Shown here piece after piece: positions 7,742-59,508 of a DNA stretch of 61,398 nt. Position numbers and translations under genes: made by a program. Source of the stretch: an uncultured Anaerolineaceae bacterium (GTDB taxonomy: Bacteria > Chloroflexota > Anaerolineae > Anaerolineales > UBA4823); assembly GCA_964525785.1 (NCBI GenBank), contig CAZGIX010000004.1:1-61398 (forward strand). Reading direction: 5' to 3'. The notes under the pieces are model-generated. The model was given only the letters and a program-made list of their open reading frames with translations. It searched no databases and had not been told where the DNA came from. Position 1 is the first letter of the stretch. Each line of letters begins with the position of its first letter.

Positions 7742-7867
7742 ATTTCCTCCTCTGGTTAAGAAAAGTATAGCCCACTGTCCTTTAAAACGCAACAAAACGG
7801 GGAGGAGGAACACGAAAAGCTGCTCGCACTTCGTGGGCCACGCAAAATGATGAAAATAATGGAATTC

Positions 7868-7946: not shown

Positions 7947-7977
7947 CGATCAAATCAGGTATAGTGGAAATCCCGGG

Positions 7978-27292: not shown

Positions 27293-27375
27293 AACGCCCG
27301 GTTTTCATGAGGTATTTCATTAACATTAGGACTAATGCAGTTTGGGGAGGAAGTCTCTCCTGAACTGCGTAACTT

Positions 27376-29460: not shown

Positions 29461-29551
29461 TCTGCCTCGGCTGCACTCAGGAGAGCAGCCACTTTCTTAG
29501 CTGCTTCACGCTGAGTCGCGGAGAAATCCCATGAGCAGAGCGGGTGGGGAA

Positions 29552-31330: not shown

Positions 31331-31396
31331 ACGATTATCAAACGATCAAGGACTGACGCAGTTGGTTAGTAACACCTACTATTATAACTATTGCGC

Positions 31397-34150: not shown

Positions 34151-34166
34151 GGCTGTCTCGGATTAC

Positions 34167-39281: not shown

Positions 39282-39321
39282 TGTCCAGGTTGCGCCAATT
39301 AACCGAGCTTACCCGTCGCTT

Positions 39322-41496: not shown

Positions 41497-42215
41497 GGTT
41501 TTTTGGCCAGGACAATCAGGCTCTCACCCATTCGAAGGGGTATGATACTCCATCCCATGACTGCCTGCAAGCCCCCCGGCGCGCCGAAGACCAGCTTTTG
41601 GAGTTTGGCTGGCAGCCAGGTCAGGTAGGGTGCATCCCAAAAACCGTCCGAGAAAACGCGCCTGATTTGTAATCCCTGCTGGCGGATGCAGCCGAGCCAA
41701 TCAGAAGGTGTCTTCAAGCTGATATGCGTAGGATCTTTGTAGCCCACCCAGTTCTCTTTCTTACGTTTACGCATCGGCGAATCAAGATTAGGAGTAGCCA
41801 GCAGCAGCACCCCACCCGGTGCAAGAACCCGGCCCATTTCAGATATGGCTTTTTCCGGATGCGGCAGATGCTCGACCACGTGCTTGGCGATCACAATTTG
41901 AAAGCTCTCAGACAGGAAGGCGCTTAAATCCTCAGCCGAGAGCATAGCAAAGTTGCCGCCCGGTACATTCTGGCGCGCTTGGGAGAGCGCCCAGGCGTTG
42001 ATATCAGAACCGTAGACCTGGTAGCGGTCCGCCAGCCAGGTCAGCAGATGCCCCAACCCACAGCCGATTTCCAGCACACGCCCTTGAGGTGGGCCGTAGC
42101 GGCGGGCAAGCCTGGCGTAATAGCGATTCGACCACCAGTACTGGCTGTATTTCCGGAAAGAGACATCCGCATAGGCGGCGGTCTTGAAATAGCTTTCGTC
42201 AAATGGGTGGCTCAT
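41493..42215 (-). CDS. Class I SAM-dependent methyltransferase
   Basis: VLEIGCGLG motif I, GSDIN, HVVEHL, VLAPGG..LLATPN. Confidence 0.9.
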   Translation of the reverse strand: MSHPFDESYFKTAAYADVSFRKYSQYWWSNRYYARLARRYGPPQGRVLEIGCGLGHLLTWLADRYQVYGSDINAWALSQARQNVPGGNFAMLSAEDLSAFLSESFQIVIAKHVVEHLPHPEKAISEMGRVLAPGGVLLLATPNLDSPMRKRKKENWVGYKDPTHISLKTPSDWLGCIRQQGLQIRRVFSDGFWDAPYLTWLPAKLQKLVFGAPGGLQAVMGWSIIPLRMGESLIVLAKKP

Positions 42216-42997
42216 GGCTTACGGGCGATATAAAAGGTAAAAACCCCTTGTGGATCTGGAACTGCCTGGCTGTAAGGGCGTACCAGGCGGTCCGTAAGCG
42301 CCAGGTTCCAGCGCACTGGAGCGATGATCCAACGCCGGAACAGAGCATGGGGAAGCAAGGTCGGCGCGCCGAAATAATGGCCCCACTCCAGCACGCGCAT
42401 GGCCTGGGGGGAAAAATAGTGCCACCATTCATCGAGCACGAAACCTGTCCGCTCCAGCCAGGTTTGCCAGGTCTGTGGTGGCTCGGCATGCTGGACGCGC
42501 GACATGCGGCGGAACCAATCCGTGTAGGCCTCGCCCAATCCGAGCAAGCCGAGGGATTTCAGGTGCGCAGGGATCGATAACTGGCTGAGATAACCGGGAT
42601 TAGGCACGCAGAAGATGAAGGGCGCCTCAGACTTCAGCACGCGGGCGGTCTCTGCCAGGACAGCTTCGACATGGGGAATATGCTCCAGGACAGAATTGCT
42701 GATGGCGCTGGCAAAGTAGCCATCCGGAAATGGCAAACGACCACCATCCGCCTGCACCAGGGAGCGATAGCCACCTAGCCGAGCAGCCTGGCGGATCGGC
42801 CCGCCCCACGGATCGATACCTACCTCCAGCGGGCGGTCGAATGCCACGCTGGCGAAGTGCCCATCCCCACAGCCGACATCCAGCGTCGGGGCGGGCAGCT
42901 CGAGGTCCTGGTAGAAGGACGCCTCCACAGCTCGCAGCATGGCGCGGAAATAAGGCAGGTCGCGCAGGTGAAGCCAGAGGAAGTCTTTAGAGGTCAT
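42212..42997 (-). CDS. Class I SAM-dependent methyltransferase
   Basis: LDVGCGDG motif I, GIDP, LPFPDGYF, SNSVLEHIP, CVPN. Confidence 0.9.
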   Translation of the reverse strand: MTSKDFLWLHLRDLPYFRAMLRAVEASFYQDLELPAPTLDVGCGDGHFASVAFDRPLEVGIDPWGGPIRQAARLGGYRSLVQADGGRLPFPDGYFASAISNSVLEHIPHVEAVLAETARVLKSEAPFIFCVPNPGYLSQLSIPAHLKSLGLLGLGEAYTDWFRRMSRVQHAEPPQTWQTWLERTGFVLDEWWHYFSPQAMRVLEWGHYFGAPTLLPHALFRRWIIAPVRWNLALTDRLVRPYSQAVPDPQGVFTFYIARKP

Positions 42998-44144
42998 TAG
43001 TTAAGAGCGTTGTATACAGATTCTCGTATTCCCCAGCCACCGTATCTGAGGAGAACTGCCGGGAAATCCCTGCTGGGTCGCCTCGATAATCCTCGGGCCG
43101 TTCCAGGACTTTGAGAACTGCTTTGGAGAGCATACCCGCATCTGCCGGGGGGATAATCTCGCCCATACCCGTCATCAGCACCGGTTGCCGTACGCCGGGC
43201 AAGTCGGTGGCTACCACTGGAGTGCCGCAGCTCATGGCTTCTACCTGCACCATCCCGAAGGATTCCGTGCTGTTCAGGCTGGGCAGTACAAGTACATCGC
43301 AACTAGAAAGGAAAGCAGTGAAATCGCCATTAGATAATATGCCTAAAAATCGCCAATGGTCGCCCAGGCGTTCAATCAAGGGAGCCAGCCTCTGAGCATA
43401 TGCCTGCTCTCCAAAAACATTCTGGTATTGACCGACAAAAAGGACGCGCGCCTGCGGGTAATGCTCCAGGATAGTGGGTAGTGCCTGTACCAAATACTCG
43501 ACACCCTTTTCTGTGGCCAAACGCGCCGCCATGCCGATTACTGGCTGGCCCACCTGGATGCCCGCCATTCCCCGGAATGCTTCCATTTCAGCCTGCACCA
43601 CGGGTAAGATTTCGACCGGCGGTAAAACATAGCGAAGCTTGGGAAGGTAGGGCTTTAGAAAAGTTGAGTGCTCAGCATAATCGCGGGTGTTTGTGACGAT
43701 CACCCTGGCGGCTGCAGCTGAGATCCGGTTGGCGATATGCGAAACCTGGTTGGCCACCGCGTGGATAAGACCCTGTGGAAGGCGCAGGTCACAGTGGTAG
43801 GTCAGCACTACCGGCTTGCCAAGCCAGCGACCAATCACCGCGATCCCGGCGGCATCCAGCTGAGGGACGTGCAGGTTGATTATATCCGCCTGGCTTGCTA
43901 GCTTCCACGCCCAGACCGGCATGTGCGGCATGATCACCCCTTTGCTGACATGCATCAGCACTGGCATGCGCAGGATCTGGACCCCGTCGCGCTGCTCTCG
44001 CAGGGGCAGATCACGATTGTAGTGAGAAGTTAATATGCTCACCGCATGGCCGCGCCTCGCCAGGGCGCGTGCCAGCCGGTCGGCGTAGATCGTAAGACCG
44101 GAGTAGTGGGGCCGGTAATACGTCAATGCCATCAGAATTCGCAT
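42987..44144 (-). CDS. GT4 (GT-B) glycosyltransferase
   Basis: YYRP..SG N-terminus, RLATEKG, LPS..STESFGMVQVEAM (EX7E). Confidence 0.93.
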   Translation of the reverse strand: MRILMALTYYRPHYSGLTIYADRLARALARRGHAVSILTSHYNRDLPLREQRDGVQILRMPVLMHVSKGVIMPHMPVWAWKLASQADIINLHVPQLDAAGIAVIGRWLGKPVVLTYHCDLRLPQGLIHAVANQVSHIANRISAAAARVIVTNTRDYAEHSTFLKPYLPKLRYVLPPVEILPVVQAEMEAFRGMAGIQVGQPVIGMAARLATEKGVEYLVQALPTILEHYPQARVLFVGQYQNVFGEQAYAQRLAPLIERLGDHWRFLGILSNGDFTAFLSSCDVLVLPSLNSTESFGMVQVEAMSCGTPVVATDLPGVRQPVLMTGMGEIIPPADAGMLSKAVLKVLERPEDYRGDPAGISRQFSSDTVAGEYENLYTTLLTNDL

Positions 44145-44153
44145 TGGATGGAC

Positions 44154-45245
44154 TTACCCCTGCCGCTCGGATTGCAGGCCGCGCACGCGCCGGTACAAGC
44201 CGGCCAGCGATTCCCCGTCCCTGACCAGTGCATATATCCCCAACACACCGGTGACGATGTACTGTAAGAGGTGTGCCGTGATAGCGGCTGCCAGCGCGAC
44301 AGAGGTATCCACGCCAAAGAGCGCCTGCGATCCGACCATGGCGGCTTCGAAGACTCCGACTGCCCCAGGGGAAGAGGGAGCAGCAATCCCCAGCGCAGTC
44401 ACAGCCAGGCTGAAGCTCGACCAGAGCAGCCTGGTGCTGGGGATAAAAGCCAATAGAAGGAAATAAAATTGGAAGATAGCAATTAACCAATCCAGCATGA
44501 CCCAAAACATTGCACGCAGAAACCGTTTGCCATCGGTGAGGATCGAGAGCCCATCGAAGAAGGCCGGTACAGCTCTGCCTAGTAAACGGCGTACTATCGG
44601 CAGCCGGTCCGCGACCCGGTTGAAAATCCCCAACGCCCAGGCGCGGTTCCGTGCCAGCAGGTACATACCCAGGAATGCCAATAGGATGATCACGGCAATG
44701 GAGGCGGCAATTGGAAGCTGGTTGCCGGCGCCTACCACAAATGGCAGTGTGCAAAACAGCAATCCTACAGCCAGAGTCAAGTCCATGATTCTCTCGATGA
44801 TGATGGTGGTCAGCACCTCCCAGAATCCTACGGGAGCCTTACGGCTGAGAAGAAATGCCCGGGCGACCTCCCCCAATCGAAAGGGAAGCAGGTTATTGAT
44901 CAGATAGCCTTCGTTCAGCGTCCAGAATACCGCCGGGTAAGCAGCTTTCTCCTGCAGGAGGGTCCGCCAGAACATCCCGCGCACCATCAGCCAGACGAGC
45001 ATGAAGCCCATTGCCAGGAACACCAGCCGCAGGTCCGCCAACAGCAAGGCCTGTCGGAGCTTTTCCAGATCGGCAAAATAAAAGACGACGATCAGGGAGA
45101 CCAGGCTGACGAGTACACCAGGCAGTATCCGGCGCCACTCGACCCGGCCGCGCCTGTCGTTATCCAGAGGGTTCTGGGCAGGAGCATTAATATTATTCTT
45201 CTCCGTATCGCAACACTGCCAGGAACGCTTCCTGCGGAATCTCAA
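44154..45245 (-). CDS. UPF0104 / LPG_synthase_TM family putative lipid flippase (start uncertain)
   Basis: [44 protein letters not shown]. Confidence 0.85.
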
Positions 45246-49391: not shown

Positions 49392-50275
49392 TGAGCGATC
49401 TTAAATTACCTACTTATGGTGGCCAGGCCGTTATAGAGGGTGTGATGATGCGCGGCAAAAGCACTGTAGCGATTGCCATGCGCGCCCCCAATCAGGAGAT
49501 CGTGCTGCACACAGAACCTCTGGGCGGCATATACAAGAGCAAACTAACCAAAATCCCTTTTCTACGCGGGCTTGTTATGTTGTGGGATGCCCTCGGTCTG
49601 GGCATGCGTGCCTTGACCATCTCTGCCAACACACAAACCGAAGAAGACGCCAAGCTTGAAGGCCCGGCATTGTATCTAACCCTTGGGGTATCGCTGGCAT
49701 TCGGCATCGGTTTGTTCTTCCTGGCACCCGCAGTAGGCGGGCAGCTGATCGAGCGCGCCCTGAATGTGAATGCCTGGTGGGGGAACGTAGTGGAGGGATT
49801 GATCCGCCTGGTTATCCTGGTAGGTTATATCTGGGCGGTAGGACGTATCCCAGATATTCGGCGGGTATTCGCCTATCATGGCGCCGAGCATAAAACGATC
49901 AACGCCTTCGAAGCGGGTGCGGATCTCACTCCCGAAAGCGTGGCGCGCTTCTCCCTTGAACATCCGCGCTGTGGCACAGCATTTCTACTCACCCTGGTGC
50001 TGCTTTCGATCATCGTCTTCTCGCTGCTCGGACCGCTGCCGATGTTCTGGCGTCTGGCCAGCAGGCTGCTCATGCTGCCTATCCTGGCTGGCGTGGCTTA
50101 TGAATATATCCGCTGGACGGCCAATCATCTCGACTCTGCCCTAGTGCGCTGGCTGGTTAAACCAAACCTGGCGCTGCAGAACCTCACCACCCGTGAACCC
50201 AGTCTGGATATGCTGGAGGTGTCGATTGCGGCTTTTAATGCCATGCGCGCCAGGGAACAGCAGATCCAACTCTAG
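49391..50275 (+). CDS. DUF1385 domain protein (putative metal-binding membrane enzyme)
   Basis: YGGQAVIEGVMMRG, YHGAEHKTI, HPRCGTAF, TTREP. TGATG coupling with the M20 gene. Confidence 0.9.
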   Translation: MSDLKLPTYGGQAVIEGVMMRGKSTVAIAMRAPNQEIVLHTEPLGGIYKSKLTKIPFLRGLVMLWDALGLGMRALTISANTQTEEDAKLEGPALYLTLGVSLAFGIGLFFLAPAVGGQLIERALNVNAWWGNVVEGLIRLVILVGYIWAVGRIPDIRRVFAYHGAEHKTINAFEAGADLTPESVARFSLEHPRCGTAFLLTLVLLSIIVFSLLGPLPMFWRLASRLLMLPILAGVAYEYIRWTANHLDSALVRWLVKPNLALQNLTTREPSLDMLEVSIAAFNAMRAREQQIQL

Positions 50276-51674
50276 ATTTACCTGTCACCGTCTCAGTAAA
50301 TGGATCATCCTTGCCGCTCTGGCGCTGATAGCCGCGGCATGTATGCCTCCCAGTGGCGAGCTGCCGACGACTACGATATCTCCCACCCCCGCGGCAACGC
50401 TCACCCCTGTCCCGCTGCCTGATCTGGTTATAGATTCCTTGGCGTTTGAGCCCGAGACGCCGACCATATGCTACGATGCTACCGACCTGGGTACCCTGGT
50501 GACGATTATCAACAACGGCAGTGCCGATGCCGGATCTTTCATTGTTGGTCTCAACAGCGCTCAGGTCAGCGTTGAAGATGGGCTGGCAGCAGGCGAAACG
50601 CTCCCCATCTGGTTCAATACATATGCTCAGGAGAATATCGCCACCGTTGATCTCACTTCCCAGATCGAAGAAACCGACGAAGGCAACAACCAATCGACCC
50701 TGACATTCAATATGCCCACACTTTCAGCAGCCTGCGAGCCGACTCAGGAAACTCCCGCCCTCCACGTAAAAGCGCAGGCTGTGCTCACTGGACATACCGG
50801 GAAGGTCTGGGCTGTAGATTTCTCTCCTGATGGGCGCTTGTTGGTCTCTGGCTCGGTCGATAATACCCTTCGCCTGTGGCAGGTGCAAAATGTGTCTCTG
50901 CTGCGCACCATGCTCGGACACCCCTTTCCGGTGCTTACACTGGAAGTGTCTCCCAATAATCAATTGATCGCCACCGGCTCCGATGATGGGCTGGTGCGGA
51001 TATGGCGTATCTCCAACGGCAGCCTGGTGCATACCCTGACCGGTCACGGCGGGTGGATAAACAGCCTGACTTTCTCGCCGGATGGAACCAGCCTGGCAAC
51101 GGCGTCAGACGATTACACGGTACGGATCTGGCGCGTCCTGGACGGCAGGTCGCTGCAGGTAATTGACGAAGGCATGTCGCGCGTTCTAGACATCGCCTAT
51201 TCCCCCACAGGGCAATCGCTGGCATGGTCCGAATCCGATGGGCACGTGCGCGTCTGGCAGCTCTCGGACCGCAGATGGCTGGCAACCCTTGACCCAACCG
51301 AGCAGCCTGCCACCAGTGTAGCGTTCTCGCCCGACAGCCAGTACCTGGCCGCGGGATATGGGGATGGCTATATACGCATCTGGCTACCTGGGGATTGGAG
51401 TCTGGCGAAAACGCTGCAGTACGGGTTGGAGCCGGTCAACGCCATCTCCTTCTCTCCAGATGGAAGGTGGCTGGCTGCTGCTAGCAAAGATGGACAGGTT
51501 GTGATCTGGCAGATGCTGCCGGTTGGTGAAAACGTTGCTCAAGACAGCCCTGCGCTGATCCTTGATGGTCACACTGGTCCGGTGAACTGCGTAACCTTCT
51601 CACCGAATGGGACACTGGTAGCCAGCGCTTCGGATGACCAGACCATCCGCCTGTGGACCCTGCCAGAGCAGTAA
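50238..51674 (+). CDS. Putative lipoprotein with CARDB (Ig-like) domain and WD40 beta-propeller (start uncertain)
   Basis: WIILAALALIAAAC lipobox, Pro/Thr linker, PDLVI...N.G...AGSF.V...VD....E..E.NN (CARDB), about 7 GH...FSPDG...S.S.D..R.W repeats. Confidence 0.82.
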   Translation: MPCAPGNSRSNSRFTCHRLSKWIILAALALIAAACMPPSGELPTTTISPTPAATLTPVPLPDLVIDSLAFEPETPTICYDATDLGTLVTIINNGSADAGSFIVGLNSAQVSVEDGLAAGETLPIWFNTYAQENIATVDLTSQIEETDEGNNQSTLTFNMPTLSAACEPTQETPALHVKAQAVLTGHTGKVWAVDFSPDGRLLVSGSVDNTLRLWQVQNVSLLRTMLGHPFPVLTLEVSPNNQLIATGSDDGLVRIWRISNGSLVHTLTGHGGWINSLTFSPDGTSLATASDDYTVRIWRVLDGRSLQVIDEGMSRVLDIAYSPTGQSLAWSESDGHVRVWQLSDRRWLATLDPTEQPATSVAFSPDSQYLAAGYGDGYIRIWLPGDWSLAKTLQYGLEPVNAISFSPDGRWLAAASKDGQVVIWQMLPVGENVAQDSPALILDGHTGPVNCVTFSPNGTLVASASDDQTIRLWTLPEQ

Positions 51675-51677
51675 GCC

Positions 51678-52556
51678 ATGAGACGCAACTGGATTCTGGG
51701 GGGATTATTCGCCAGCGTGGCCTGCGTGCTGGTAGCCATCCTGACAGGCGCAGCAGCCTGGGGATGGGCTTTTATCCGTTCTCAGCCCAACCCCACGGAC
51801 CAGACCCTCTATCAGGGCGTGACTTACCAGCGCATCGTTCGCCAATCGCCGCGCCTGATGATGATCCACATCATCACCATTGACCTGCAAGCTGAAGGCA
51901 TCCGCTTCCTGGTCACTCCCGGCAATCCCAAAGAGGAGCTTCCCCTGGAGGCAAGCACAACTTCTCAATTCCTGGAGGAGAACAACCTGCAGATCGCTAT
52001 CAACGGCGACGGGTTTGGGCCCTGGTATTCCCACAGTATTTTCAATTACTACCCTCACAGGGGTGACCCGGTGGCCCCCATCGGCCTGGCAGCTTCGGAG
52101 GGCACAATCTACTCATACCAGACTGATAACGAACCTGTGCTGTACATCGCCCGCACCAACCGGGCGCGCTTTAACACACCGATCGGTAAAGTCCACAATG
52201 CCATTTCCGGGAATATAATGCTGGTCCAGCAGGGCCAGGTGCAGGCATTCCCAGACGATGATCGCCAGCCGCGCACAGCAGTCGCCCTGGATAAAGCCGC
52301 CAAACGCATGATCCTGGTGGTAGTGGATGGGCGCCAGCCAAACTACAGCGAGGGAGCCACTCTGACAGAGCTGGCTCAGATCATCATCGAACAGGGTGGC
52401 TATTTCGGCATGAACCTGGATGGTGGAGGGTCATCTACCCTGGTGAAACAGGGCAGCTTCGGCAGGGGAGACGTGCTGAATTCGCCCGTTGACCGGGGTG
52501 TACCGGGCTGGCAAAGACCGGTAGGCAACCACCTGGGCATCTACGCTAAACCGTGA
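51678..52556 (+). CDS. Phosphodiester glycosidase family protein (NAGPA-like), N-terminally anchored
   Basis: AINGDGF, PRTAVAL, VVVDGRQ, MNLDGGGSS, R.VGN. Confidence 0.88.
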   Translation: MRRNWILGGLFASVACVLVAILTGAAAWGWAFIRSQPNPTDQTLYQGVTYQRIVRQSPRLMMIHIITIDLQAEGIRFLVTPGNPKEELPLEASTTSQFLEENNLQIAINGDGFGPWYSHSIFNYYPHRGDPVAPIGLAASEGTIYSYQTDNEPVLYIARTNRARFNTPIGKVHNAISGNIMLVQQGQVQAFPDDDRQPRTAVALDKAAKRMILVVVDGRQPNYSEGATLTELAQIIIEQGGYFGMNLDGGGSSTLVKQGSFGRGDVLNSPVDRGVPGWQRPVGNHLGIYAKP

Positions 52557-52983: not shown

Positions 52984-53246
52984 TAAGCCTCCTGAGTGGT
53001 GATAAGTTCCAAATCCCTGATTCCACACCTGAACGTATCGAGATGGTGTTTATATAAATAACGTAGAACCCGGAAATTATAGCATTGCACGCGCAGCGAA
53101 CGAGTATATACTATAGAAGTTAAGCAGTTCCGTCAAATTCACCAACTGCGCAAGTTCTCTACAAAACCAAAGAAACAGCCAGTTGGAAATACGGTTGGTA
53201 GGCAAATACGCCGGGCAAATAAACGCATGTAGAAAGGACGACATTC

Positions 53247-55226
53247 GTGAAAATCCTGACCATCTCCGCTGAACAGCGCCGCTTGCTGGTCTATTTCATC
53301 TTGTTTTTTTCCTTCATCCAATTGATCACCGAGTTCGTCGCCGGCATCTATGCCTTCGGTCTATTGGGGACCGGCATCCCGGCTGAGATCATCAGTATAT
53401 TGTTGTTTTTCTCGCCAATCCTGCTGCTCGTGTTCGGGAGAGGGTTTGCTGCCAGGCTCCCATTATTTGCTGGAATATTGGTACTGCTTTGCCGGGCCAT
53501 CGAAGTATTCTTGGATACGCGCGGCCGTATGCTGGTATCGGGCTTGGGGGTGGCGGCTTTTCTGCTCCTGTTGCCTGCCCTCATCTGGGAGCTGGGAAAA
53601 CACAAAGACCGCAATGGTGGTATACAGCTCGGGTCGGGTTTAGCAATCGGTCTTTTATTGGCTATCCTGGACCGCGCATTGAATTCCGGTACTGACCTCA
53701 CCGCTGGGGGATGGGCCAGATTCGTCGGGGTCATCCTGGCGCTGCTGGCAGGTGCCATGCTGCCAGGTATGTTGCAAGAAATCCAGACAGCCAGGGAGGT
53801 TCCCCAACCAAACATCCGGGTCTCATTTGTCCGCATTGCCGGTCACTGTCTGGGCATCGGCGCCGCATGGATCCTGTTATATTTTACTTTCGCCAGCCCA
53901 AATGTTATTGCCCGCTGGAGCGAGGTGAATTACCTGTCCGTCCTGGCGACCATCGCCCTGGGGACAATTTGCTTTGTCCTGATAATCGTAACCAAGGGCG
54001 GATTGCAATGGATCACAGATCGCAGGATTGTGATTGCCTGGAACTCGCTCTTCATCCTTGCCATGCTGCTGGCGATTCTCCCCCACCAGCTGCGCTTCCC
54101 AGTCGATGCAGCTGGCTACCCACTCTACGAGCCTGCTTCCAATCCGGCCGCGTATCTAACTTTATACCTGATGCTATTCTTGTATCCAGTGATCCTGGTA
54201 GATTTCATGCTCTACACCCAGGCATTGGTAGATCTGCAGCCGCCAGCGCGCTCCTTGGGAGGTGGATTTCTGCTCGGCTCGTTCTTCATCCTCTTATTGG
54301 TTCTTTCCCATGTATTCACCACTGTTTACGATTACATTCCGGTGGTCGGCCCATTCTTTCGCGACAAATTCTGGCTGGTGTACCTGGTCGCCGGCATCAT
54401 GTTGTTCCTGCCGCTGCTGTTTAAACGCAGGGAAATGCGCCTCCCTGTCGCTATCAACAGCAGCCTCCGGTATACCCTCGCCAGTGCCAGTCTCCTGACC
54501 GTGCTGGCCGCCGCTCTGATATCTGCGAAACCCTCACCCGCCAGCACAGACGTAAATTCGCTGCGCGTCTTGACGTACAATATCCAACAAGGTTACAGCG
54601 AAAGTGGGGAGCGCAATTTCGATGGCCAGCTCGATCTTATCCGCAGCCTGGATGCTGATATCATCGGGCTGCAGGAATCAGACACCAACCGCATTGCCGG
54701 GGGCAACAACGATGTGGTGCGCTACTTTTCCGACAGGCTTGGCATGTATTCGTACTACGGTCCAAAGACTGTATCAGGTACTTTCGGCATCGCCCTTTTA
54801 TCGAAATACCCGATCATGCAGCCACAAACCTTCTTCATGTTCAGTGAAGGCGAACAGACCGCCACGATCCACGCTCAGGTCATTGTGGGTAGTAAAACCA
54901 ACAACCTGTTTATCACCCACCTGGGAAACGGCGGACCCATTGTCCAGCAGGAAGCGTTCTTAGAAGAGGTGGACAACCTGGAGAATGTGATCGCAATGGG
55001 AGATTTCAACTTCGAGCCAGATACAGAGCAGTACCACCTGACTCGCAGCCTGTTGGAGGATGCCTGGCTGATCAAGTGGCCCGATGGCATAGACGACCAG
55101 GGTTACAACCCTGTGGAGCGCATCGACCACGTATTTGTCACGCCCGGGACGCGCGTCAGTGAGGCGCGTTTCCTAACCGGACCCGAGTCGGACCACCCGG
55201 CGCTGTTTGTTGAGATTACCTGGTAA
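53247..55226 (+). CDS. Polytopic membrane protein with C-terminal endonuclease/exonuclease/phosphatase domain (Cwh43/PGAP2IP-like)
   Basis: Many TM helices, then TYNIQQG, DIIGLQE, GIALLSKYP, MGDFN, RIDHVF and SDH EEP motifs. GTG start with AAGGA RBS. Confidence 0.85.
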   Translation: MKILTISAEQRRLLVYFILFFSFIQLITEFVAGIYAFGLLGTGIPAEIISILLFFSPILLLVFGRGFAARLPLFAGILVLLCRAIEVFLDTRGRMLVSGLGVAAFLLLLPALIWELGKHKDRNGGIQLGSGLAIGLLLAILDRALNSGTDLTAGGWARFVGVILALLAGAMLPGMLQEIQTAREVPQPNIRVSFVRIAGHCLGIGAAWILLYFTFASPNVIARWSEVNYLSVLATIALGTICFVLIIVTKGGLQWITDRRIVIAWNSLFILAMLLAILPHQLRFPVDAAGYPLYEPASNPAAYLTLYLMLFLYPVILVDFMLYTQALVDLQPPARSLGGGFLLGSFFILLLVLSHVFTTVYDYIPVVGPFFRDKFWLVYLVAGIMLFLPLLFKRREMRLPVAINSSLRYTLASASLLTVLAAALISAKPSPASTDVNSLRVLTYNIQQGYSESGERNFDGQLDLIRSLDADIIGLQESDTNRIAGGNNDVVRYFSDRLGMYSYYGPKTVSGTFGIALLSKYPIMQPQTFFMFSEGEQTATIHAQVIVGSKTNNLFITHLGNGGPIVQQEAFLEEVDNLENVIAMGDFNFEPDTEQYHLTRSLLEDAWLIKWPDGIDDQGYNPVERIDHVFVTPGTRVSEARFLTGPESDHPALFVEITW

Positions 55227-55237: not shown

Positions 55238-55888
55238 TTAATTCTGCTTCGCACCGCACTCGGAGCAAAATTTGACACCCGAATCGATCTTTGCTCTGCA
55301 TTCAATGCAGAATTTCTCTGATTTGATCTTAGTCCCGCACTCCGGACAGAATTTTGCATTTTTGGCGAGTGGAGCTTCGCAGTTCGGACAAGCAGCGACT
55401 ACGCCTTCTCGCCAGCTGGATTCTTTCAGCATCTCCCGGTCTTCCTCAGTCATCTTGGAGTGCGCCCAAATCTCCTCGACAGTCCGGCTCGATTGGGCAG
55501 CAGCCATCTCCACACCCAGATCGGGGGAGCATTCCTTGCACAATCCTTTGGAAGGATTCCAGCAGTTCTTTCGGCATACCCAGCTTGAACAGCGCGGGCA
55601 TTGGATAAATTCGGACTTAACCTCTTTCATCGCTCTGACGAAGGCATCGTCGTGAGCGCGTTCCCAACCCGCCGACCGGACCCTCTCGCTTACATCCGCA
55701 GCTTGACCGAATATTCCCCCAAACAGACCGCTGGCGGTATCCAGGGCCCCCGATATCATGCTGATACCTGAAGACTGGAATCGGGTACGGTAGCCCATTC
55801 CACAGCGATTGCAATTGAACTCAAACTGGAAGCCCTGGTCGGTGCTCATATCCGAATAGTTGTTGGTGAACTCAATTCTTCCTTCCAT
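55238..55888 (-). CDS. Multi zinc-ribbon protein (double zinc ribbon C-terminus)
   Basis: 16 Cys in CxxC/CxxxC pairs (CNRC, CPRC, CRKNC, CKEC, CPNC, CPEC, CIEC, CSEC). Start ATG 55888 with GGAGG. Confidence 0.82.
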   Translation of the reverse strand: MEGRIEFTNNYSDMSTDQGFQFEFNCNRCGMGYRTRFQSSGISMISGALDTASGLFGGIFGQAADVSERVRSAGWERAHDDAFVRAMKEVKSEFIQCPRCSSWVCRKNCWNPSKGLCKECSPDLGVEMAAAQSSRTVEEIWAHSKMTEEDREMLKESSWREGVVAACPNCEAPLAKNAKFCPECGTKIKSEKFCIECRAKIDSGVKFCSECGAKQN

Positions 55889-56121
55889 CCAGCATGCCCT
55901 CCCAATTGACGCAGTCATCAGCACCAAAATCAATTATGTTTTTCTATTATACAACGCAGCCTCGTCCTGATACTTGAGAATGGGCTTACATTTCCCTTAG
56001 GGCCGTTGAATAAGACTTCCACAAGAATCCGAAAATCCGGGTTTCCCCTCGCTAAGGGGAAGGAATTGGCTGCAGAAAGTGAATGCTTTACGTTTGAGGA
56101 TAAATGTTGTAGACTTCATCC

Positions 56122-58644
56122 ATGCAGATTGACCTGGAATTGTACCGGCGCAGCGTTCGCATCGCTGCAGATCCACCCCTGTATTTATCTGTCATCGACA
56201 TCCATCCCGACCAGCCCCAGCGTACAATCGTATTCTTACATGGTTTTGGTGGCAGGGCTCGCCAGTGGGTCTATCAGCTGCAGAATTTCTCCGCATCCAG
56301 CCGGGTGATCGCCATCGATCAGCGCGGGCACGGTCATTCCAGCAAACCGGGCGGTAAATATACCATGTCTGTTTTGGTCACCGACCTGCTGGCGGTGCTG
56401 GACACTTTTGGCATCAATGAAAAAATCGTACTGGCAGGACATTCCTTTGGCGGCGCAATTGCCACAGATTTTACCGCCCGCTATCCCGAGCGGGTGGAGC
56501 GCTTGATCCTGATCGCCACACCCGGAGAGTATCGGCTCAACCCGGTTTACCGCAACCTGCTGCGCCTGCCCGCCACCACCCTGCAGGCGCTGACGCCTTT
56601 TACTCGAAGCTGGCTCGGAGCTCCGCCGCCGATCCTGAAGGCATGGCATGAGGATGCATTAATCACCTGGAACAGCTGGCAGCGGTACGGAGAAGTAAAT
56701 GTGCCAACCCTGGTAATTCGCGGCTACCAGGATCAGGTGTTTAAACGACCGCTCTACGAAGAGGTCGCCCGCACTATCCCAAACTCAGAAGAGATCGATG
56801 TGGGCGCCTCCGGACACATGGTAATGCTGGAGCGGCGCGATGCGGTTAACCGAGCCATCAGCCGCTTCCTTGAAACCTCTAACCGCTCATGGCGAGAGGA
56901 TGAAGGACAGGAGCAGGAACAGCGGCAAAACGACCTTAACCATGAGCGTCCCTGGCTTCCATATTACGCTGCTGGAACGCCCCAGACAGTAGCCATCCCG
57001 CGCGTTCCGCTCCCATCCCTGCTCGATTCGGCTGCCCGCCGCTACCCAGGCCGCATTGCCGTCCACTTCGAGGGTCGCCGCATTACTTACCGCCGTTTAG
57101 AGCGGGAGGTAAATCGCTTTGCCAATGCCCTGCTTGGATTGGGCTTGAATAAGGGTGAGCGGGTGATGTTACTTCTGCCCAACCTGCCTCAAATGGTCAT
57201 TGCTTTTTACGGCACGTTGAAAGCTGGCGGGGTAGGGGTTTTTACGCTGCCGACCACCGAGGTGAGTGAGCTGATCCGACAGGTGAACGATTCCGGCGCA
57301 ACCGTGCTGGTAACCCTGACCCAATTCGATGAGCTGATCCAACGCTTGAAGCAGCAGCTCGATGAGCGAGGCAGCTCGCCATTAAAGCATATCATCTTCA
57401 CCCATGTTAGCGATTACCTGCCGCTCTACAAACGGTTGGCTTTCGGTTTGTCTCCCCGAAGGCGGCTGCTGCACCTGCTGGACATTCCCATGGATGCCAG
57501 TATGCACGTCTTAAGCCAGCTATTGCGAAGCGCCAGCCAGGAAATCCCAGAAGTCCAGGTAGCCTCCACAGATATGGCATGCATCATCTATACGGGCGGC
57601 ACCACGGACACACCCAAGGGCGTGATGCTGTCGCATACCAACCTGGTGGCAAACACCCTGCAGACCCGCCACTGGTTTGCCATGGCAGAGGAGGGTGTAG
57701 AGCGATTCCTGTGTGTGCTGCCCTTCTCTCACAGCTACGGTCTGACAACGGCATTAAATGTGCCTCTGTCGTTGGGAGCAACCCTGATCGTCAAAGCTCA
57801 GTTTGAGATCACTGATATCCTGAAAACGATCCGCCGCCAGCGACCGACGATCTTCCCGGGAGTTCCTCAGATGTACGTGGCGATCAAGGACGCACCCGGG
57901 GTGCGCAAATTCGGGATCGACTCGATCAAAGCCTGCATCAGCGGATCGGCTCCCTTGCCGGTAGAAGTGCAGGAGGCTTTCGAAAAATTAACGCATGGTC
58001 ACCTGGTGGAGGGCTACGGATTAACAGAGGCATCACCAGTCACTCATGCCAATCCATTGAATGGATTACGAAAGGTTGGCAGCATCGGCATCCCACTGCC
58101 TAATACAGACGCGCGTATCATGGATTTAAAGACCAGCCGGCGACGCGTACCAACTGGTCAGATCGGAGAGCTGGCGGTGCGCGGACCCCAGGTGATGGTC
58201 GGCTATTGGCAGCAGCCTGATGAAACCGAGCGCGCCCTCTCTCTAGATGGATGGCTGCTCACCGGGGATATTGCCCAGATGGATAGTGATGGCTATTTCC
58301 GCATTATTGCCCGCAAAGCTGATATGTGGTATCCCTCCAGGCAGCGGGACAAGCCGGCTTTTCCACGCGATATCGAGGAAGTTCTCTACGAGATCCCCCA
58401 AGTGAAGGAGGCTGCAGTTATCGCTATTGCCAACCAGCCGATCGCCTTCGTGATCAGCGGTAAAGACCGCCCTTCCTCAGAATCCGTCATCGGGTACTGC
58501 AAACGTCGCCTGCCGCCAGAGCTGGTGCCGCGCCTGGTCATATTCCTGGATGAGTTCCCGCGCACATTTATTGGAAAGGTGCTGCGCCGTGAGCTGGCTC
58601 GGCGCATCGAGCTTTCCAGCCAAACAACTTTTCATTTCAAGTGA
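56122..58644 (+). CDS. Fusion of alpha/beta hydrolase and long-chain acyl-CoA ligase-like adenylation domain
   Basis: N-terminus HGFGG, DQRGHG, GHSFGG, GHMV. C-terminus RPWL..Y, YTGGTTDTPKG, EGYGLTE, WLLTGD, GKVLRR. Confidence 0.88.
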   Translation: MQIDLELYRRSVRIAADPPLYLSVIDIHPDQPQRTIVFLHGFGGRARQWVYQLQNFSASSRVIAIDQRGHGHSSKPGGKYTMSVLVTDLLAVLDTFGINEKIVLAGHSFGGAIATDFTARYPERVERLILIATPGEYRLNPVYRNLLRLPATTLQALTPFTRSWLGAPPPILKAWHEDALITWNSWQRYGEVNVPTLVIRGYQDQVFKRPLYEEVARTIPNSEEIDVGASGHMVMLERRDAVNRAISRFLETSNRSWREDEGQEQEQRQNDLNHERPWLPYYAAGTPQTVAIPRVPLPSLLDSAARRYPGRIAVHFEGRRITYRRLEREVNRFANALLGLGLNKGERVMLLLPNLPQMVIAFYGTLKAGGVGVFTLPTTEVSELIRQVNDSGATVLVTLTQFDELIQRLKQQLDERGSSPLKHIIFTHVSDYLPLYKRLAFGLSPRRRLLHLLDIPMDASMHVLSQLLRSASQEIPEVQVASTDMACIIYTGGTTDTPKGVMLSHTNLVANTLQTRHWFAMAEEGVERFLCVLPFSHSYGLTTALNVPLSLGATLIVKAQFEITDILKTIRRQRPTIFPGVPQMYVAIKDAPGVRKFGIDSIKACISGSAPLPVEVQEAFEKLTHGHLVEGYGLTEASPVTHANPLNGLRKVGSIGIPLPNTDARIMDLKTSRRRVPTGQIGELAVRGPQVMVGYWQQPDETERALSLDGWLLTGDIAQMDSDGYFRIIARKADMWYPSRQRDKPAFPRDIEEVLYEIPQVKEAAVIAIANQPIAFVISGKDRPSSESVIGYCKRRLPPELVPRLVIFLDEFPRTFIGKVLRRELARRIELSSQTTFHFK

Positions 58645-58647: not shown

Positions 58648-59508
58648 TTGAATAGATCGTCCCGAACAATGGAATATAGCAATAACAGCTCAGGGATCAA
58701 TTATCTTGTCCAAGGGGACGGTATCCCGGTCCTGTTGATCCATGGCATGGCAGCCTCGTTGCAGGATTGGGCCAGTTTATCCCCGTCTTTGGCTCTCGCC
58801 GGGTTCAGAGCCTACCGCCTCGATCTTCCCGGACACGGGCAGAGCGAAAAGCCGGATGATCCCAGCCAATACCACATCGAAGCTTTCTCCTCGCGTTTGA
58901 GCGGCTGGATCGACAGCCTTCAGTTGCCGGAGCCGCCGCTGCTGGTTGGTCACTCGCTGGGAAGCTATCTGAGCTTAAACTATGCCATGTGCCACCCCGA
59001 AAACGTCCGCGGGATGGTGCTGATCAACCCGCTGTACAGTCCCGAACAGCTGGCACCCATCTTGCGGGTCATCCGGCGCAGACCGGCCCTGGGTGTTAAG
59101 GCCATGCGTGCCGTGCCGGAATGGCTGATTAATTTATTCCTTGGGTGGGATCCGAGCAGCGCAGCGAACTTCTCTCCCGAAATCCGCCAGCAAATCGCCA
59201 ATGACTACAAGCGCGCTTCTCCGCACTTTCTCTACATCACCAGGGATTTCCCCGACTTATCTGGCTCACTGGGGGTGATCAATATCCCCGTGCTGGTGAT
59301 CTGGGGTGAGCATGATCTCACGCTCAACCCAGATTCATTCCAGCACTTGGTCCAGTGTCTGCCAAACGCCACTGGACACGCAATACCAGGAAGCGGTCAC
59401 CAGCCCCATATCGGGAATCCCAACCTGGTGAACCGTCTAACTGTGGAGTTTGCCAGATCGGTTTCTACTAAGCCACTTCTAGATAACGCTCAACTTCCCA
59501 GTCCGTAA
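58648..59508 (+). CDS. Alpha/beta hydrolase (start may be ATG 58669)
   Basis: LLIHGMAAS, LDLPGHGQS, GHSLG, IWGEHD, GHQPH. Confidence 0.9.
   Translation: MNRSSRTMEYSNNSSGINYLVQGDGIPVLLIHGMAASLQDWASLSPSLALAGFRAYRLDLPGHGQSEKPDDPSQYHIEAFSSRLSGWIDSLQLPEPPLLVGHSLGSYLSLNYAMCHPENVRGMVLINPLYSPEQLAPILRVIRRRPALGVKAMRAVPEWLINLFLGWDPSSAANFSPEIRQQIANDYKRASPHFLYITRDFPDLSGSLGVINIPVLVIWGEHDLTLNPDSFQHLVQCLPNATGHAIPGSGHQPHIGNPNLVNRLTVEFARSVSTKPLLDNAQLPSP

What the first reader, a model, noticed from the sequence alone, without database searches (positions are those of the whole stretch)
53247..55226. Bacterial Cwh43/PGAP2IP-like protein, a relative of the GPI-anchor lipid remodelase
Seen: a large polytopic domain followed by an EEP domain with GLQESDTNRIAGGNND..MYSYYGP...GIALLSKYPI. 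From memory, yeast Cwh43 has GLLETDTQRITMGNRD..MYADFGP...GCVLLSKFPI and the same TM+EEP layout; this is a recalled comparison, not a search. Known: Cwh43 exchanges the lipid moiety of GPI anchors. Inference: a prokaryotic glycolipid headgroup-transfer or remodelling enzyme. With nearby GT-Cs and acyltransferases it raises the possibility of a GPI-like glycolipid pathway.
Basis: partly seen in the sequence, partly recalled or inferred. Interest (0 to 1): 0.65.

Follow-up and report, generated by a model that had tools for sequence, protein, structure and literature searches.

The report
Prokaryotic Cwh43/PGAP2IP-like membrane phosphodiesterase
This Anaerolineae gene encodes a real prokaryotic relative of the core of the eukaryotic GPI-anchor lipid remodelase (Cwh43/PGAP2IP): a transporter-like 12-helix membrane domain joined to a fully intact outward-facing phosphodiesterase, of unknown substrate and not part of any conserved gene cluster.

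Summary
The ORF (53247..55226, +, 659 aa) and the quoted motifs are exactly as described.

**Homology.** Homology to Cwh43/PGAP2IP is real and covers the whole protein.
- The EEP domain passes the Pfam PGAP2IP-EEP model (82 bits against a cut-off of 27).
- A retrieved yeast-type Cwh43 aligns co-linearly by hhalign from TM2 into the EEP domain (prob 99, E 4e-18).
- TM-only comparisons pair lobe 1 with 6TM_1st (E 3e-4) and lobe 2 with 6TM_2nd (E 7e-4). Controls are negative.
- The Cwh43 EEP half scores about 50 bits on this family and about 20 bits on other PF23226-type EEPs.

**New here.**
- The membrane domain has an MFS-transporter-like 6+6 fold plus a 13th helix that puts the EEP domain outside the cell.
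- The prokaryotic EEP keeps every canonical catalytic motif (N, E, H, GDFN, IDH, SDH). The two Cwh43 proteins examined lack GDFN, IDH and SDH.

**Distribution.** The family occurs in at least 229 species: mostly Anaerolineae, plus Heimdall-, Hod- and Promethearchaeota.

**Not supported.** The proposed link to the nearby GT-C/acyltransferase cluster fails. Neighbourhoods are not conserved.

**Prior notice.** A 2023 JBC paper noted, without studying it, an 'Asgard/Chloroflexus group' beside Cwh43.

**Function.** Most likely a Mg2+-dependent phosphodiesterase or transferase acting on a membrane-embedded phospho(glyco)lipid. This is inference only.

The parts
53233..53238 (+). Shine-Dalgarno-like AAAGGA, 8 nt before the GTG start
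   Evidence: Read directly from the sequence.
53247..55226 (+). Whole gene: 659-aa MFS-like 12-TM domain, linker TM helix and extracytoplasmic EEP phosphodiesterase
   Evidence: ORF; Pfam; AF2 model with pLDDT 81 and pTM 0.84.
53268..53789 (+). N-lobe, TM1-6 (res 8-181); counterpart of Pfam 6TM_1st_PGAP2IP
   Evidence: AF2 helices. hhalign of the broad family profile against Cwh43 6TM_1st gives E 3e-4 over 143 columns, with controls at E>=0.05. E47 and P57 align with Cwh43 E296 and P306.
53826..54419 (+). C-lobe, TM7-12 (res 194-391); counterpart of Pfam 6TM_2nd_PGAP2IP
   Evidence: PF23021 hit at res 201-392 (E 0.16 for the window; best family member 7.7e-5; broad consensus 8.6e-5 over profile 2-177/181). 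hhalign E 7e-4.
54315..54374 (+). Outer-face TM11-TM12 hairpin motif FTTVYDYIPVVGPFFRDKFW (res 357-376), shared with Cwh43 (WTVAYAFVPGGFLLRER)
   Evidence: Invariant F357, T358, Y361, Y363, I364, P365, R372, D373 and W376. Aligned with Cwh43 T581, Y584, P588, R594 and E595 by hhalign and by single-sequence phmmer.
54459..54521 (+). 13th TM helix (res 405-425) that carries the chain to the outside
   Evidence: AF2 helix 405-425. K/R-rich loop 392-404 on the cytoplasmic side.
54552..55223 (+). EEP domain (res 436-659) with a full catalytic set: N445, E477, H558, D586/N588 (GDFN), D627/H628 (IDH), D649/H650 (SDH)
   Evidence: PF23226 82.3 bits and PF03372 68.8 bits. Residues invariant in 26 relatives. 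Motif check. Foldseek hits to EEP enzymes.
54651..54815 (+). Cwh43-like block DADIIGLQESDTNRIAGGNND...MYSYYGP...GIALLSKYPI (res 469-523)
   Evidence: 29/55 identical to yeast-type Cwh43 P0299. This is the core of the hhalign and phmmer EEP alignment.

Best explanation
The gene encodes a prokaryotic member of the PGAP2IP / Cwh43 C-terminal family. Twelve TM helices form a two-lobe, MFS-transporter-like bundle with the N-terminus in the cytoplasm. A 13th helix crosses the membrane once more and places a complete, canonical Mg2+-type EEP phosphodiesterase domain on the outer face. The conserved polar residues of the membrane domain lie in the outer half of the bilayer, next to the EEP domain. The most likely mechanism is as follows. 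The MFS-like domain binds a membrane-embedded amphiphile, such as a phospholipid, a phosphoglycolipid (possibly inositol- or ceramide-based) or a lipid-linked glycan. It presents that molecule's phosphodiester to the EEP active site. The EEP domain then hydrolyses the bond or transfers the phosphoryl-linked group to another lipid. This is the same type of chemistry proposed for Cwh43, which exchanges diacylglycerol or phosphatidic acid for ceramide or ceramide-phosphate. Shown here: the architecture, topology prediction, fold, intact catalytic residues and homology. Inferred: enzymatic activity, a lipid substrate, and hydrolysis versus transfer.
For: Homology:
- PF23226 scores 82.3 bits (cut-off 27) in the window protein and hits all 26 relatives.
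- hhalign of the family against two genuine Cwh43 proteins (Frag1 + PF23022 + PF23021 + PF23226, each 172-402 bits; eukaryotic contig) gives one co-linear alignment, 47-566 vs 296-795, prob 99.0, E 3.8e-18.
- TM-only hhalign: lobe 1 vs 6TM_1st E 3e-4, lobe 2 vs 6TM_2nd E 7e-4, whole TM E 1.3e-4. Cross, Frag1, EEP and reversed controls are all E>=0.05.
- The Cwh43 EEP N-half scores a median of about 50 bits on the TM+EEP family and about 20 bits on other PF23226/EEP fusions.

Fold:
- The TM-only AF2 model has pLDDT 84.6 and pTM 0.89.
- 48 of its 50 top Foldseek PDB hits are MFS transporters by name (the other two are labelled only 'protein A'), including the lipid transporters MFSD2A, SPNS2 and EfpA. 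TM-scores are 0.45-0.54 and alignments span the whole domain.

Topology:
- K+R count is 17 in the proposed cytoplasmic loops and 7 in the outer loops.
- About 29 of 35 invariant TM-region residues lie in the outer half or outer loops.

Catalysis:
- All EEP motifs are invariant.

Substrate class:
- The characterised relatives in this EEP subcluster are GlcNAc-6-phosphocholine/ethanolamine phosphodiesterases, clustering next to sphingomyelinases (PMC10704324).
- The best PDB sequence hit is the Bt3783 mannosyl-6-phosphatase.
- The same EEP type is fused to a Wzx flippase (P0126), NAGPA, GH3, GT4 and type-I phosphodiesterase domains.
- Anaerolineae are proposed ceramide producers (PMC11334938).
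Against: - There is no biochemical or genetic evidence for any member of the family.
- No partner gene is conserved. The commonest neighbour family occurs in 13 of 79 loci and is lineage-local ABC-transporter synteny.
- TM-only profile comparisons are only moderately significant (hhalign probability 27-54%). The Cwh43 template had just two sequences, and the window protein is below Pfam's cut-off for PF23021 (12 vs 27 bits) with no hit to PF23022.
- An MFS-like fold could equally indicate a genuine transporter.
- Cwh43's own mechanism is unproven, and its EEP domain lacks GDFN, IDH and SDH, so function may not transfer.
- No transcript evidence was found.
Confidence: 0.55

Rival explanations
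1. Scavenging machine. The outward-facing EEP domain hydrolyses an extracellular or cell-surface phosphodiester, such as a phosphocholine- or phosphoethanolamine-decorated glycan, a glycerophosphodiester or a nucleic acid. The fused MFS domain is a real transporter that imports the released product.
For: The TM domain has an MFS fold whose best matches include sugar porters. Characterised relatives of the EEP domain release phosphocholine or phosphoethanolamine from GlcNAc (PMC10704324). The gene is stand-alone, like many uptake genes. ABC-transporter genes are the commonest, though lineage-local, neighbours.
Against: No MFS Pfam model is matched by any family member. Only a Leu-rich consensus touches MFS_1, at E 0.006. 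No motif-A-like G-x-x-x-D-R-x-G-R-R is visible in the TM2-TM3 loop (FGRGFAARL). Invariant residues cluster at the outer face and not around a central or cytoplasmic gate. In one relative, a lipid-linked-glycan flippase replaces the TM domain on the same EEP type (P0126). The homologous eukaryotic protein acts on a lipid.
Confidence: 0.2
2. Cell-envelope glycan phosphodiesterase. The EEP domain trims phosphodiester-linked substituents from a wall polymer, S-layer glycan or exopolysaccharide, and the 13-TM domain serves only as an anchor or scaffold.
For: The EEP subclade contains sugar-specific phosphodiesterases (PMC10704324) and a mannosyl-6-phosphatase. Secreted or wall-associated fusions occur with NAGPA, GH3, PASTA/SLH and T9SS signals. 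One variant carries a C-terminal GH16-like domain (P0122).
Against: A mere anchor would not keep 35 invariant positions over 430 residues, nor stay recognisably conserved from bacteria to Asgard archaea to eukaryotes. One helix would be enough for anchoring.
Confidence: 0.15
3. True functional orthologue of Cwh43. It would be part of a GPI-like glycolipid pathway together with the GT-C (DUF2298, PMT_2), GT4, LPG-synthase-TM and acyltransferase genes at 26.5-45.2 kb.
For: Whole-length homology to Cwh43-C. A glycoconjugate cluster is present in the same window. One relative has a TMEM260/PMT_2-type GT-C directly upstream (L004).
Against: The cluster is on the other strand, at least 8 kb away, behind lepA, tlyA, an M20 peptidase and other genes. 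Its genes recur near homologues in 0-1 of 79 loci. There is no Frag1/PGAP2 domain. The catalytic motifs differ from those of Cwh43. No GPI-anchored proteins are known in bacteria (general knowledge).
Confidence: 0.05
4. A generic membrane-anchored EEP nuclease or phosphatase whose resemblance to Cwh43 is only superfamily-level.
For: Public annotation says only 'endonuclease/exonuclease/phosphatase family'. Foldseek on the whole model gives nucleases (TDP2, LINE-1 EN, nocturnin) at E of about 1e-7. In divergent family members the generic PF03372 model outscores PF23226.
Against: The Cwh43 EEP half prefers this family by about 30 bits over other EEP fusions. The TM domains are homologous and co-linear. 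Exonuclease III models score far below threshold.
Confidence: 0.03

Closest known systems
Yeast Cwh43 (C-terminal two-thirds) / mammalian PGAP2IP, the putative GPI-anchor ceramide remodelase
   Same: Same domain order, 6 TM + 6 TM + linker + EEP, aligned co-linearly. Shared TM2 Glu/Pro pair and TM11-12 hairpin motif. Shared EEP block GL[QL]E[ST]DT.R..GN.D ... Y..YGP ... G.ALLSK[YF]PI, 29/55 identical. The EEP domain lies on the non-cytoplasmic side.
   Different: There is no N-terminal Frag1/PGAP2 domain. The protein keeps GDFN, IDH and SDH, which the two Cwh43 proteins examined lack, and N445 aligns with Thr/Cys in them. It scores 82 bits on PF23226 where genuine Cwh43 scores about 400, matching only profile positions 9-134 of 239. 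The hosts are not known to make GPI anchors. The eukaryotic sequences sit on a very long branch.
GlcNAc-PDase family (the 'Clostridia group' of EEP sugar phosphodiesterases; J Biol Chem 2023, PMC10704324)
   Same: Same EEP subcluster as Cwh43/PGAP2IP. These are metal-dependent phosphodiesterases that remove phosphocholine or phosphoethanolamine from GlcNAc-6-P. The paper places an 'Asgard/Chloroflexus group' in the same cluster, which matches this family's taxonomy.
   Different: Those enzymes are soluble, secreted proteins of 219-357 aa without TM segments. The window protein has a 430-residue membrane domain. The Asgard/Chloroflexus group was not studied biochemically.
EEP-type sphingomyelinases / phospholipases C (Bacillus cereus SMase, Streptomyces SMase C 7cne, human neutral SMase 8j2f)
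   Same: The same catalytic fold and residues acting on a lipid phosphodiester at a membrane surface. They appear among the Foldseek hits and form a neighbouring sequence cluster (PMC10704324).
   Different: Sphingomyelinases are soluble or monotopic and lack an MFS-like domain. Sequence similarity is only at superfamily level.
Lipid-handling MFS proteins (MFSD2A, SPNS2, EfpA, Rv1410 homologue)
   Same: The same 6+6 helix fold (TM-score 0.34-0.47 for these four; the best MFS hits reach 0.54). They bind amphiphilic lipids through a lateral opening (general knowledge).
   Different: There is no sequence-level MFS membership and no motif A. Conserved residues concentrate on the outer face. An extra TM13 and an enzyme domain are fused on.
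Bacteroides thetaiotaomicron Bt3783 mannosyl-6-phosphatase (PDB 4c1r / 3mpr)
   Same: Best PDB match by sequence profile (E 0.012) and among the top structural matches for the EEP domain. It acts on a sugar phosphate in a glycan.
   Different: It is a soluble periplasmic enzyme, and the similarity is weak and limited to the C-terminal half of the EEP domain.

Membership tests
PGAP2IP / Cwh43 C-terminal module | EEP domain matches Pfam PF23226 (Exo_endo_phos_PGAP2IP) above the gathering score | tested here: met
   82.3 bits against a cut-off of 27, E 4e-23. All 26 relatives match. Only profile positions 9-134 of 239 are covered, and PF23226 also matches many unrelated prokaryotic EEP fusions, so this feature alone is not specific.
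PGAP2IP / Cwh43 C-terminal module | EEP domain is specifically closer to Cwh43 than other EEP proteins are | tested here: met
   The Cwh43 EEP N-half scores a median of about 50 bits on about 350 family members and about 20 bits on 38-44 other PF23226/EEP fusions.
PGAP2IP / Cwh43 C-terminal module | Second 6-TM domain (Pfam PF23021) | tested here: inconclusive
   The window protein scores 12.2 bits (E 0.16), below the cut-off of 27. Five of 26 members hit (best 7.7e-5), P0177 hits at 0.0019, and the broad consensus scores 22.9 bits over profile 2-177/181. hhalign lobe 2 vs Cwh43 6TM_2nd gives E 7e-4, with negative controls. The evidence supports homology but does not reach the curated threshold.
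PGAP2IP / Cwh43 C-terminal module | First 6-TM domain (Pfam PF23022) | tested here: inconclusive
   No hmmscan hit. hhalign lobe 1 vs Cwh43 6TM_1st gives E 3e-4 over 143 of 169 columns, while controls against 6TM_2nd, Frag1 and reversed sequences give E 0.05-0.5.
PGAP2IP / Cwh43 C-terminal module | Co-linear architecture TM1-lobe, TM2-lobe, linker, EEP in one alignment | tested here: met
   hhalign aligns 47-566 with 296-795 of Cwh43 (474 columns, prob 99.0, E 3.8e-18). phmmer with P0303 aligns window residues 20-568 co-linearly.
Cwh43 (fungal full-length type) | N-terminal Frag1/PGAP2-like domain (PF10277) | tested here: not met
   No Frag1 hit, and hhalign against the Cwh43 Frag1 region gives E 0.4-0.8. 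Mammalian PGAP2IP also lacks this domain, so the window protein corresponds to PGAP2IP and not to full-length Cwh43.
Cwh43 / PGAP2IP | Role in exchanging the GPI-anchor lipid for ceramide | not testable with these tools
   This needs lipid biochemistry or genetics. No conserved neighbours suggest a GPI-like pathway.
EEP superfamily (PF03372) active enzymes | Complete catalytic and metal-binding residue set | tested here: met
   N445, E477, H558, D586/N588, D627/H628 and D649/H650 are invariant in 26 relatives. GDFN, IDH and SDH motifs are present. PF03372 scores 68.8 bits over the full length.
Major Facilitator Superfamily | 12-TM, two-lobe (6+6) MFS fold | tested here: met
   Foldseek with the TM-only model: 48 of the 50 top PDB hits are MFS proteins by name. 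TM-scores are 0.45-0.54, E 1e-4 to 2e-3, and alignments cover 425-520 columns.
Major Facilitator Superfamily | Sequence membership (Pfam MFS models, motif A in the TM2-TM3 loop) | tested here: not met
   No MFS model appears among the hits of 26 members at E<=10. Only a Leu-rich consensus touches MFS_1, at E 0.006 and below the cut-off. No motif-A-like sequence is visible in the alignment. So the domain is MFS-like in fold and is not filed as an MFS transporter.
GlcNAc-PDase 'Clostridia group' | Soluble secreted single-domain EEP of 219-357 aa | tested here: not met
   The protein is 659 aa with 13 TM helices. The paper itself separates the Asgard/Chloroflexus group by size and domain organisation.

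The most novel reading that the evidence does not exclude
These prokaryotic proteins would represent the ancestral, catalytically canonical form of the eukaryotic GPI lipid remodelase. In this reading, an MFS-like lipid-binding domain feeds a phospholipid to an outward-facing EEP domain, which swaps the lipid moiety or head group by phosphodiester exchange. In Anaerolineae, a class recently proposed to make ceramides, this could mean converting a diacylglycerol-based phospholipid into a ceramide-based one. Eukaryotes would have inherited the module from an Asgard or bacterial donor and then let the EEP half degenerate. If so, the bacterial enzyme offers a tractable model for the still unproven Cwh43 reaction.
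Probability: 0.2. Interest if true: 0.8.

Novelty: new variant of a known kind. Interest (0 to 1): 0.55.

Why it matters
Cwh43/PGAP2IP is the least understood step of GPI-anchor lipid remodelling. It is still called a 'putative' or 'so-called' ceramide remodelase, and no structure of it turned up in either the sequence or the fold search of the PDB.

Four results make that long-standing question more testable:
- Its whole catalytic core (both membrane lobes plus the EEP domain) exists as a compact single protein in hundreds of bacteria and in Heimdall-, Hod- and Promethearchaeota.
- In those organisms it has an intact canonical active site.
- The membrane part has an MFS-like fold.
- The prokaryotic proteins can be expressed without the eukaryotic partner domain.

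The finding also bears on the origin of a eukaryotic endomembrane lipid pathway, and it defines a large family that is currently annotated only as 'endonuclease/exonuclease/phosphatase'.

The novelty is limited in three ways. Pfam already tags these proteins with the PGAP2IP EEP model. One paper has already noted the Asgard/Chloroflexota group. The function remains inferred.

Tried and rejected
1. Sequence search of the PDB with the protein and with the family profile found nothing for the TM part and only weak EEP hits.
2. Foldseek with the full-length model returned only generic EEP enzymes in the top 50, so a TM-only model was needed.
3. A word-index search with the protein written twice, to exclude the 660-aa family by length, gave only six longer bacterial variants. 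A 6xEEP profile at E<=10 finally retrieved two Cwh43 proteins.
4. The exhaustive representative search was saturated by the family itself (419 at E<=1e-30), so its top 150 did not reach eukaryotes.
5. Consensus sequences scanned against Pfam raised PF23021 to 22.9 bits, but also raised unrelated TM families to similar E-values, so I treat this as weak evidence.
6. Divergent family members did not hit the PGAP2IP TM models and score higher on generic PF03372.
7. Neighbourhood analysis of 79 loci plus five annotated contigs found no conserved partner. NAGPA adjacency occurs only in the closest relative, and GT-C cluster genes are absent near homologues.
8. The two lobes show no sequence similarity to each other.
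9. Asgard copies are not closer to Cwh43 than bacterial ones, and the tree backbone is unresolved, so an Asgard origin cannot be tested here.
10. No RNA run holds the gene.
11. The rest of the window holds no sphingolipid or inositol-lipid genes.
12. The genome search and the fetch from genomes were shut, so no genome-wide co-occurrence test could be run. The Umemura 2007 paper is not in the held library.
Full report
**Observation.** The window holds one ORF at exactly 53247..55226 (+), with a GTG start, encoding 659 aa. AAAGGA lies 8 nt upstream. The flanking genes are a UPF0047 gene upstream and a zinc-ribbon gene downstream, both on the opposite strand, so the gene looks monocistronic. Hydropathy analysis and an AlphaFold2 model (mean pLDDT 81, pTM 0.84) show 13 TM helices (res 8-425) followed by an alpha/beta EEP fold (436-659).

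**The family.**
- The word-index search gave 818 relatives. The top 120 are all 640-690 aa, about 50% identical, from Anaerolineae/Anaerolineales bins, and are named only 'endonuclease/exonuclease/phosphatase family'.
- An exhaustive profile search found 419 cluster representatives at E<=1e-30.
- A scan of one genome per species found relatives in 229 species. The best 80 are mostly Chloroflexota. They also include full-length copies at 39-43% identity in Hodarchaeota, Heimdallarchaeota and Promethearchaeota, and one in SAR324. A Hydrogenedentota member was identified separately.
- Among 26 relatives, the canonical EEP residues are invariant: N445, E477, H558, D586/N588, D627/H628 and D649/H650. 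So are 35 positions in the membrane region.

**Is it related to Cwh43/PGAP2IP? The EEP domain.**
- Pfam's PGAP2IP-specific model PF23226 scores 82.3 bits (cut-off 27), above the generic PF03372 (68.8 bits).
- That alone is not decisive. PF23226 covers only profile positions 9-134 of 239.
- In divergent family members the generic model wins.
- PF23226 also tags many prokaryotic EEP domains fused to NAGPA, GH3, GT4, type-I phosphodiesterase, Wzx, PASTA/SLH or secretion domains.

I therefore needed real Cwh43 sequences for a direct comparison. A profile of tandem EEP domains, used with the length filter, retrieved P0299 (949 aa) and P0303 (892 aa). Both carry Frag1, 6TM_1st, 6TM_2nd and PGAP2IP-EEP at 172-402 bits each in P0299. 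P0299 lies on a compact yeast-like eukaryotic contig. Used as a query, the alignable N-terminal half of their EEP domain scores a median of about 50 bits on about 350 members of the TM+EEP family. It scores about 20 bits on the other PF23226/EEP fusions. The 55-residue block 469-523 is 29/55 identical to P0299.

**Is it related to Cwh43/PGAP2IP? The membrane region.**
- PF23021 (the second PGAP2IP TM domain) is the top TM-family hit at the right place (res 201-392, nearly the whole profile). It is sub-threshold: E 0.16 for the window protein, a best of 7.7e-5 among 26 members, and 8.6e-5 for a broad consensus.
- Profile-profile comparison of the family with the two Cwh43 proteins gives a single co-linear alignment: 47-566 against 296-795, 474 columns, prob 99.0, E 3.8e-18.
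- On the TM regions alone, with a 116-sequence family profile: lobe 1 matches 6TM_1st (E 3e-4, 143 of 169 columns), lobe 2 matches 6TM_2nd (E 7e-4), and the whole TM region matches at E 1.3e-4. Lobe 1 vs 6TM_2nd, lobe 2 vs 6TM_1st, either lobe vs Frag1 or EEP, and all reversed controls give E 0.05-0.9.
- Single-sequence phmmer alignments from Cwh43 typically begin around TM11. They run through a shared outer-face hairpin (FTTVYDYIPVVGPFFRDK against VFTaaYaFVPgGvyFRER), the linker helix and the first half of the EEP domain. For the window protein the alignment is co-linear over residues 20-568.
- The TM2 Glu/Pro pair (E47/P57) aligns with Cwh43 E296/P306 at identical spacing.

I conclude with about 0.9 confidence that the whole protein is homologous to PGAP2IP, that is, to Cwh43 without its Frag1 domain. 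The curated Pfam thresholds for the two TM models are not reached.

**Differences from Cwh43.**
- There is no Frag1/PGAP2 domain.
- All alignments stop at THLGNGG / sHnGQEED. Beyond that point, the two Cwh43 proteins have no GDFN, IDH or SDH motif, while the window and Asgard proteins have all three.
- N445 aligns with Thr/Cys in Cwh43.
- This agrees with genuine Cwh43 scoring about 400 bits on PF23226 and only 26-29 bits on the generic EEP model.

So the prokaryotic enzyme is a canonical, complete EEP hydrolase, and the eukaryotic domain is derived. That limits direct transfer of function in either direction.

**Fold and topology of the membrane domain.** A TM-only model is confident (pLDDT 84.6, pTM 0.89). 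Searched against the PDB, 48 of its 50 best hits are Major Facilitator Superfamily proteins by name. They include PfHT1, GLUT1/3/5, VMAT1/2, MelB, NupG, OxlT and FLVCR1, and also the lipid-handling MFSD2A, SPNS2, EfpA and an Rv1410 homologue. TM-scores are 0.45-0.54, and the alignments span the whole domain. The remaining two hits are labelled only 'protein A'.

The '6TM_1st' and '6TM_2nd' domains are therefore the two lobes of an MFS-like fold. I found no statement of this for Cwh43 in the held literature. There is no sequence-level MFS membership and no visible motif A. The lobes are not detectably similar to each other.

K+R counts are 17 in the proposed cytoplasmic loops and 7 in the outer loops. 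Together with the MFS rule that both termini are cytoplasmic, this places the N-terminus inside. After TM13, the EEP domain is outside. About 29 of the 35 invariant membrane-region residues lie in the outer half or outer loops, next to the EEP domain.

**Genomic context.** The immediate neighbours in the window are unrelated to each other:
- LepA
- TlyA/FtsJ
- an M20 peptidase
- DUF1385
- a WD40 protein
- a NAGPA-type phosphodiester glycosidase
- UPF0047
- a zinc-ribbon protein
- a hydrolase-acyl-CoA-synthetase fusion

Five annotated contigs of homologues each have different neighbours. Clustering all ORFs within 5 kb of the gene in 79 loci found no neighbour family in more than 13 loci, and that one is lineage-local ABC-transporter synteny. 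The window's own neighbours recur only in the closest relative.

It comprises two PlsC-type acyltransferases, two DUF2298 proteins, a PMT_2 GT-C, two methyltransferases, a GT4 and an LPG-synthase-TM protein. Its genes recur near homologues in 0-1 of 79 loci. The pathway idea is therefore not supported.

In Hod- and Heimdallarchaeota the gene sits in a conserved trio: a TM+EEP paralogue, a roughly 300-aa protein that looks nitroreductase-like by eye, and then the gene.

**What it most likely does.**

Shown:
- an outward-facing, catalytically complete EEP domain
- a rigidly conserved MFS-like domain fused to it, with its conserved residues facing the same side
- an EEP subclade whose characterised members are GlcNAc-6-phosphocholine/ethanolamine phosphodiesterases, clustering next to sphingomyelinases (PMC10704324)
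- a mannosyl-6-phosphatase as the best PDB sequence hit
- a relative in which a Wzx lipid-linked-glycan flippase replaces the MFS-like domain on the same EEP type (P0126)

Inferred: the MFS-like domain binds a membrane amphiphile and presents its phosphodiester to the EEP site for hydrolysis or transfer. This is the type of reaction proposed for Cwh43, namely exchange of diacylglycerol or phosphatidic acid for ceramide or ceramide-phosphate (PMC4962981).

One lead concerns the substrate. Anaerolineae were recently proposed as ceramide producers, on the basis of Spt-like genes in 218 Black Sea Chloroflexota MAGs and ceramide abundances that correlate with Anaerolineae (PMC11334938). Several homologue-bearing MAGs have 'BS150m/BS750m' names that suggest the Black Sea. 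I could not test co-occurrence because the genome-search tools were shut. The window itself holds no sphingolipid or inositol-lipid genes.

**Rivals.** The main rivals are a transporter-coupled scavenging system and a wall-glycan phosphodiesterase that uses the TM domain as an anchor. The fold and the fusions of related EEP domains keep both alive. The pattern and depth of TM conservation argue against the anchor idea. The lack of MFS sequence motifs and the outer-face clustering of invariant residues argue, less strongly, against a true transporter.

**Evolution.** The eukaryotic sequences sit on a very long branch. The main Asgard copies form a supported clade. That clade groups with SAR324, Hydrogenedentota and a divergent subfamily, apart from Chloroflexota. 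The backbone is unresolved. Asgard proteins are not closer to Cwh43 than bacterial ones by score. The origin of the eukaryotic gene cannot be decided here.

**Novelty and verdict.** The homology is partly anticipated. Public databases already attach PF23226 to these proteins. A 2023 paper placed an unexplored 'Asgard/Chloroflexus group' of different size and domain organisation in the same EEP cluster as Cwh43p and PGAP2IP (PMC10704324). It is the only paper in the held library that mentions PGAP2IP.

New in this analysis:
- the homology extends over both membrane lobes
- the membrane domain has an MFS-like fold
- the prokaryotic proteins keep a canonical active site that the Cwh43 proteins examined have lost
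- the gene has no conserved partners

I file it as a new variant of a known kind, a prokaryotic PGAP2IP-like enzyme. Interest is moderate to good, mainly because it offers a tractable route into the unresolved Cwh43 mechanism. No expression evidence was found.

Noticed in passing
window 26528-45245 (-): A long same-strand glycoconjugate/lipid cluster. It holds two PlsC-type acyltransferases, cytidylate kinase, an unannotated 592-aa protein, a 917-aa DUF2298 protein, a 1704-aa DUF2298+PMT_2 giant, a 724-aa PMT_2 GT-C, two methyltransferases, a GT4 and an LPG-synthase-TM (MprF-like) protein. It is not linked to the finding by synteny.
   Followed up: partly
window 51678-52556 (+); P0286/P0341 (Virgibacillus): A NAGPA-type 'phosphodiester glycosidase' lies two genes upstream. 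In Virgibacillus the same domain is fused to a PF23226-type EEP domain and a FIMAH domain. The adjacency in the window recurs only in the closest relative.
   Followed up: yes
P0299 res 793-949; P0303 res 728-892: The two eukaryotic Cwh43 proteins lack the GDFN, IDH and SDH motifs of the EEP superfamily, and the first catalytic Asn aligns with Thr/Cys. This suggests the eukaryotic EEP domain is catalytically non-canonical. Only two sequences were examined.
   Followed up: partly
L047, L050, L065, L068 (about 3000-8000 in each locus): Hod- and Heimdallarchaeota carry two paralogues of the TM+EEP gene, separated by a conserved protein of about 300 aa that looks nitroreductase-like by eye. The upstream paralogue sits on a very long branch.
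   Followed up: partly
P0126 (757 aa), P0122 (982 aa), P0283 (1096 aa): These are domain-swap variants of the same EEP type. P0126 has a Wzx/Polysacc_synt_3 flippase in place of the MFS-like domain. P0122 has an extra C-terminal GH16-like domain (E 0.002). P0283 is an M48-peptidase fusion in Verrucomicrobiota.
   Followed up: partly
window 56122-58644 (+): An 840-aa fusion of an alpha/beta-hydrolase domain with an AMP-binding (acyl-CoA-synthetase-like) enzyme, followed by a second alpha/beta hydrolase at 58648-59508.
   Followed up: no
window 55238-55933 (-): A 231-aa Cys-rich protein with double zinc-ribbon domains converges on the gene, ending 12 nt after its stop. Another first-stage note (e1-5128397) covers it.
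   Followed up: no
window 50193-51674 (+): A 493-aa bacterial WD40 beta-propeller protein with strong matches to eukaryotic-type WD40 models.
   Followed up: no
L007 ('Cytophagia'), L025 ('Bacillota'): Two bins labelled outside Chloroflexota carry copies that nest among Anaerolineae sequences in the tree. This suggests mis-binning or recent transfer.
   Followed up: no
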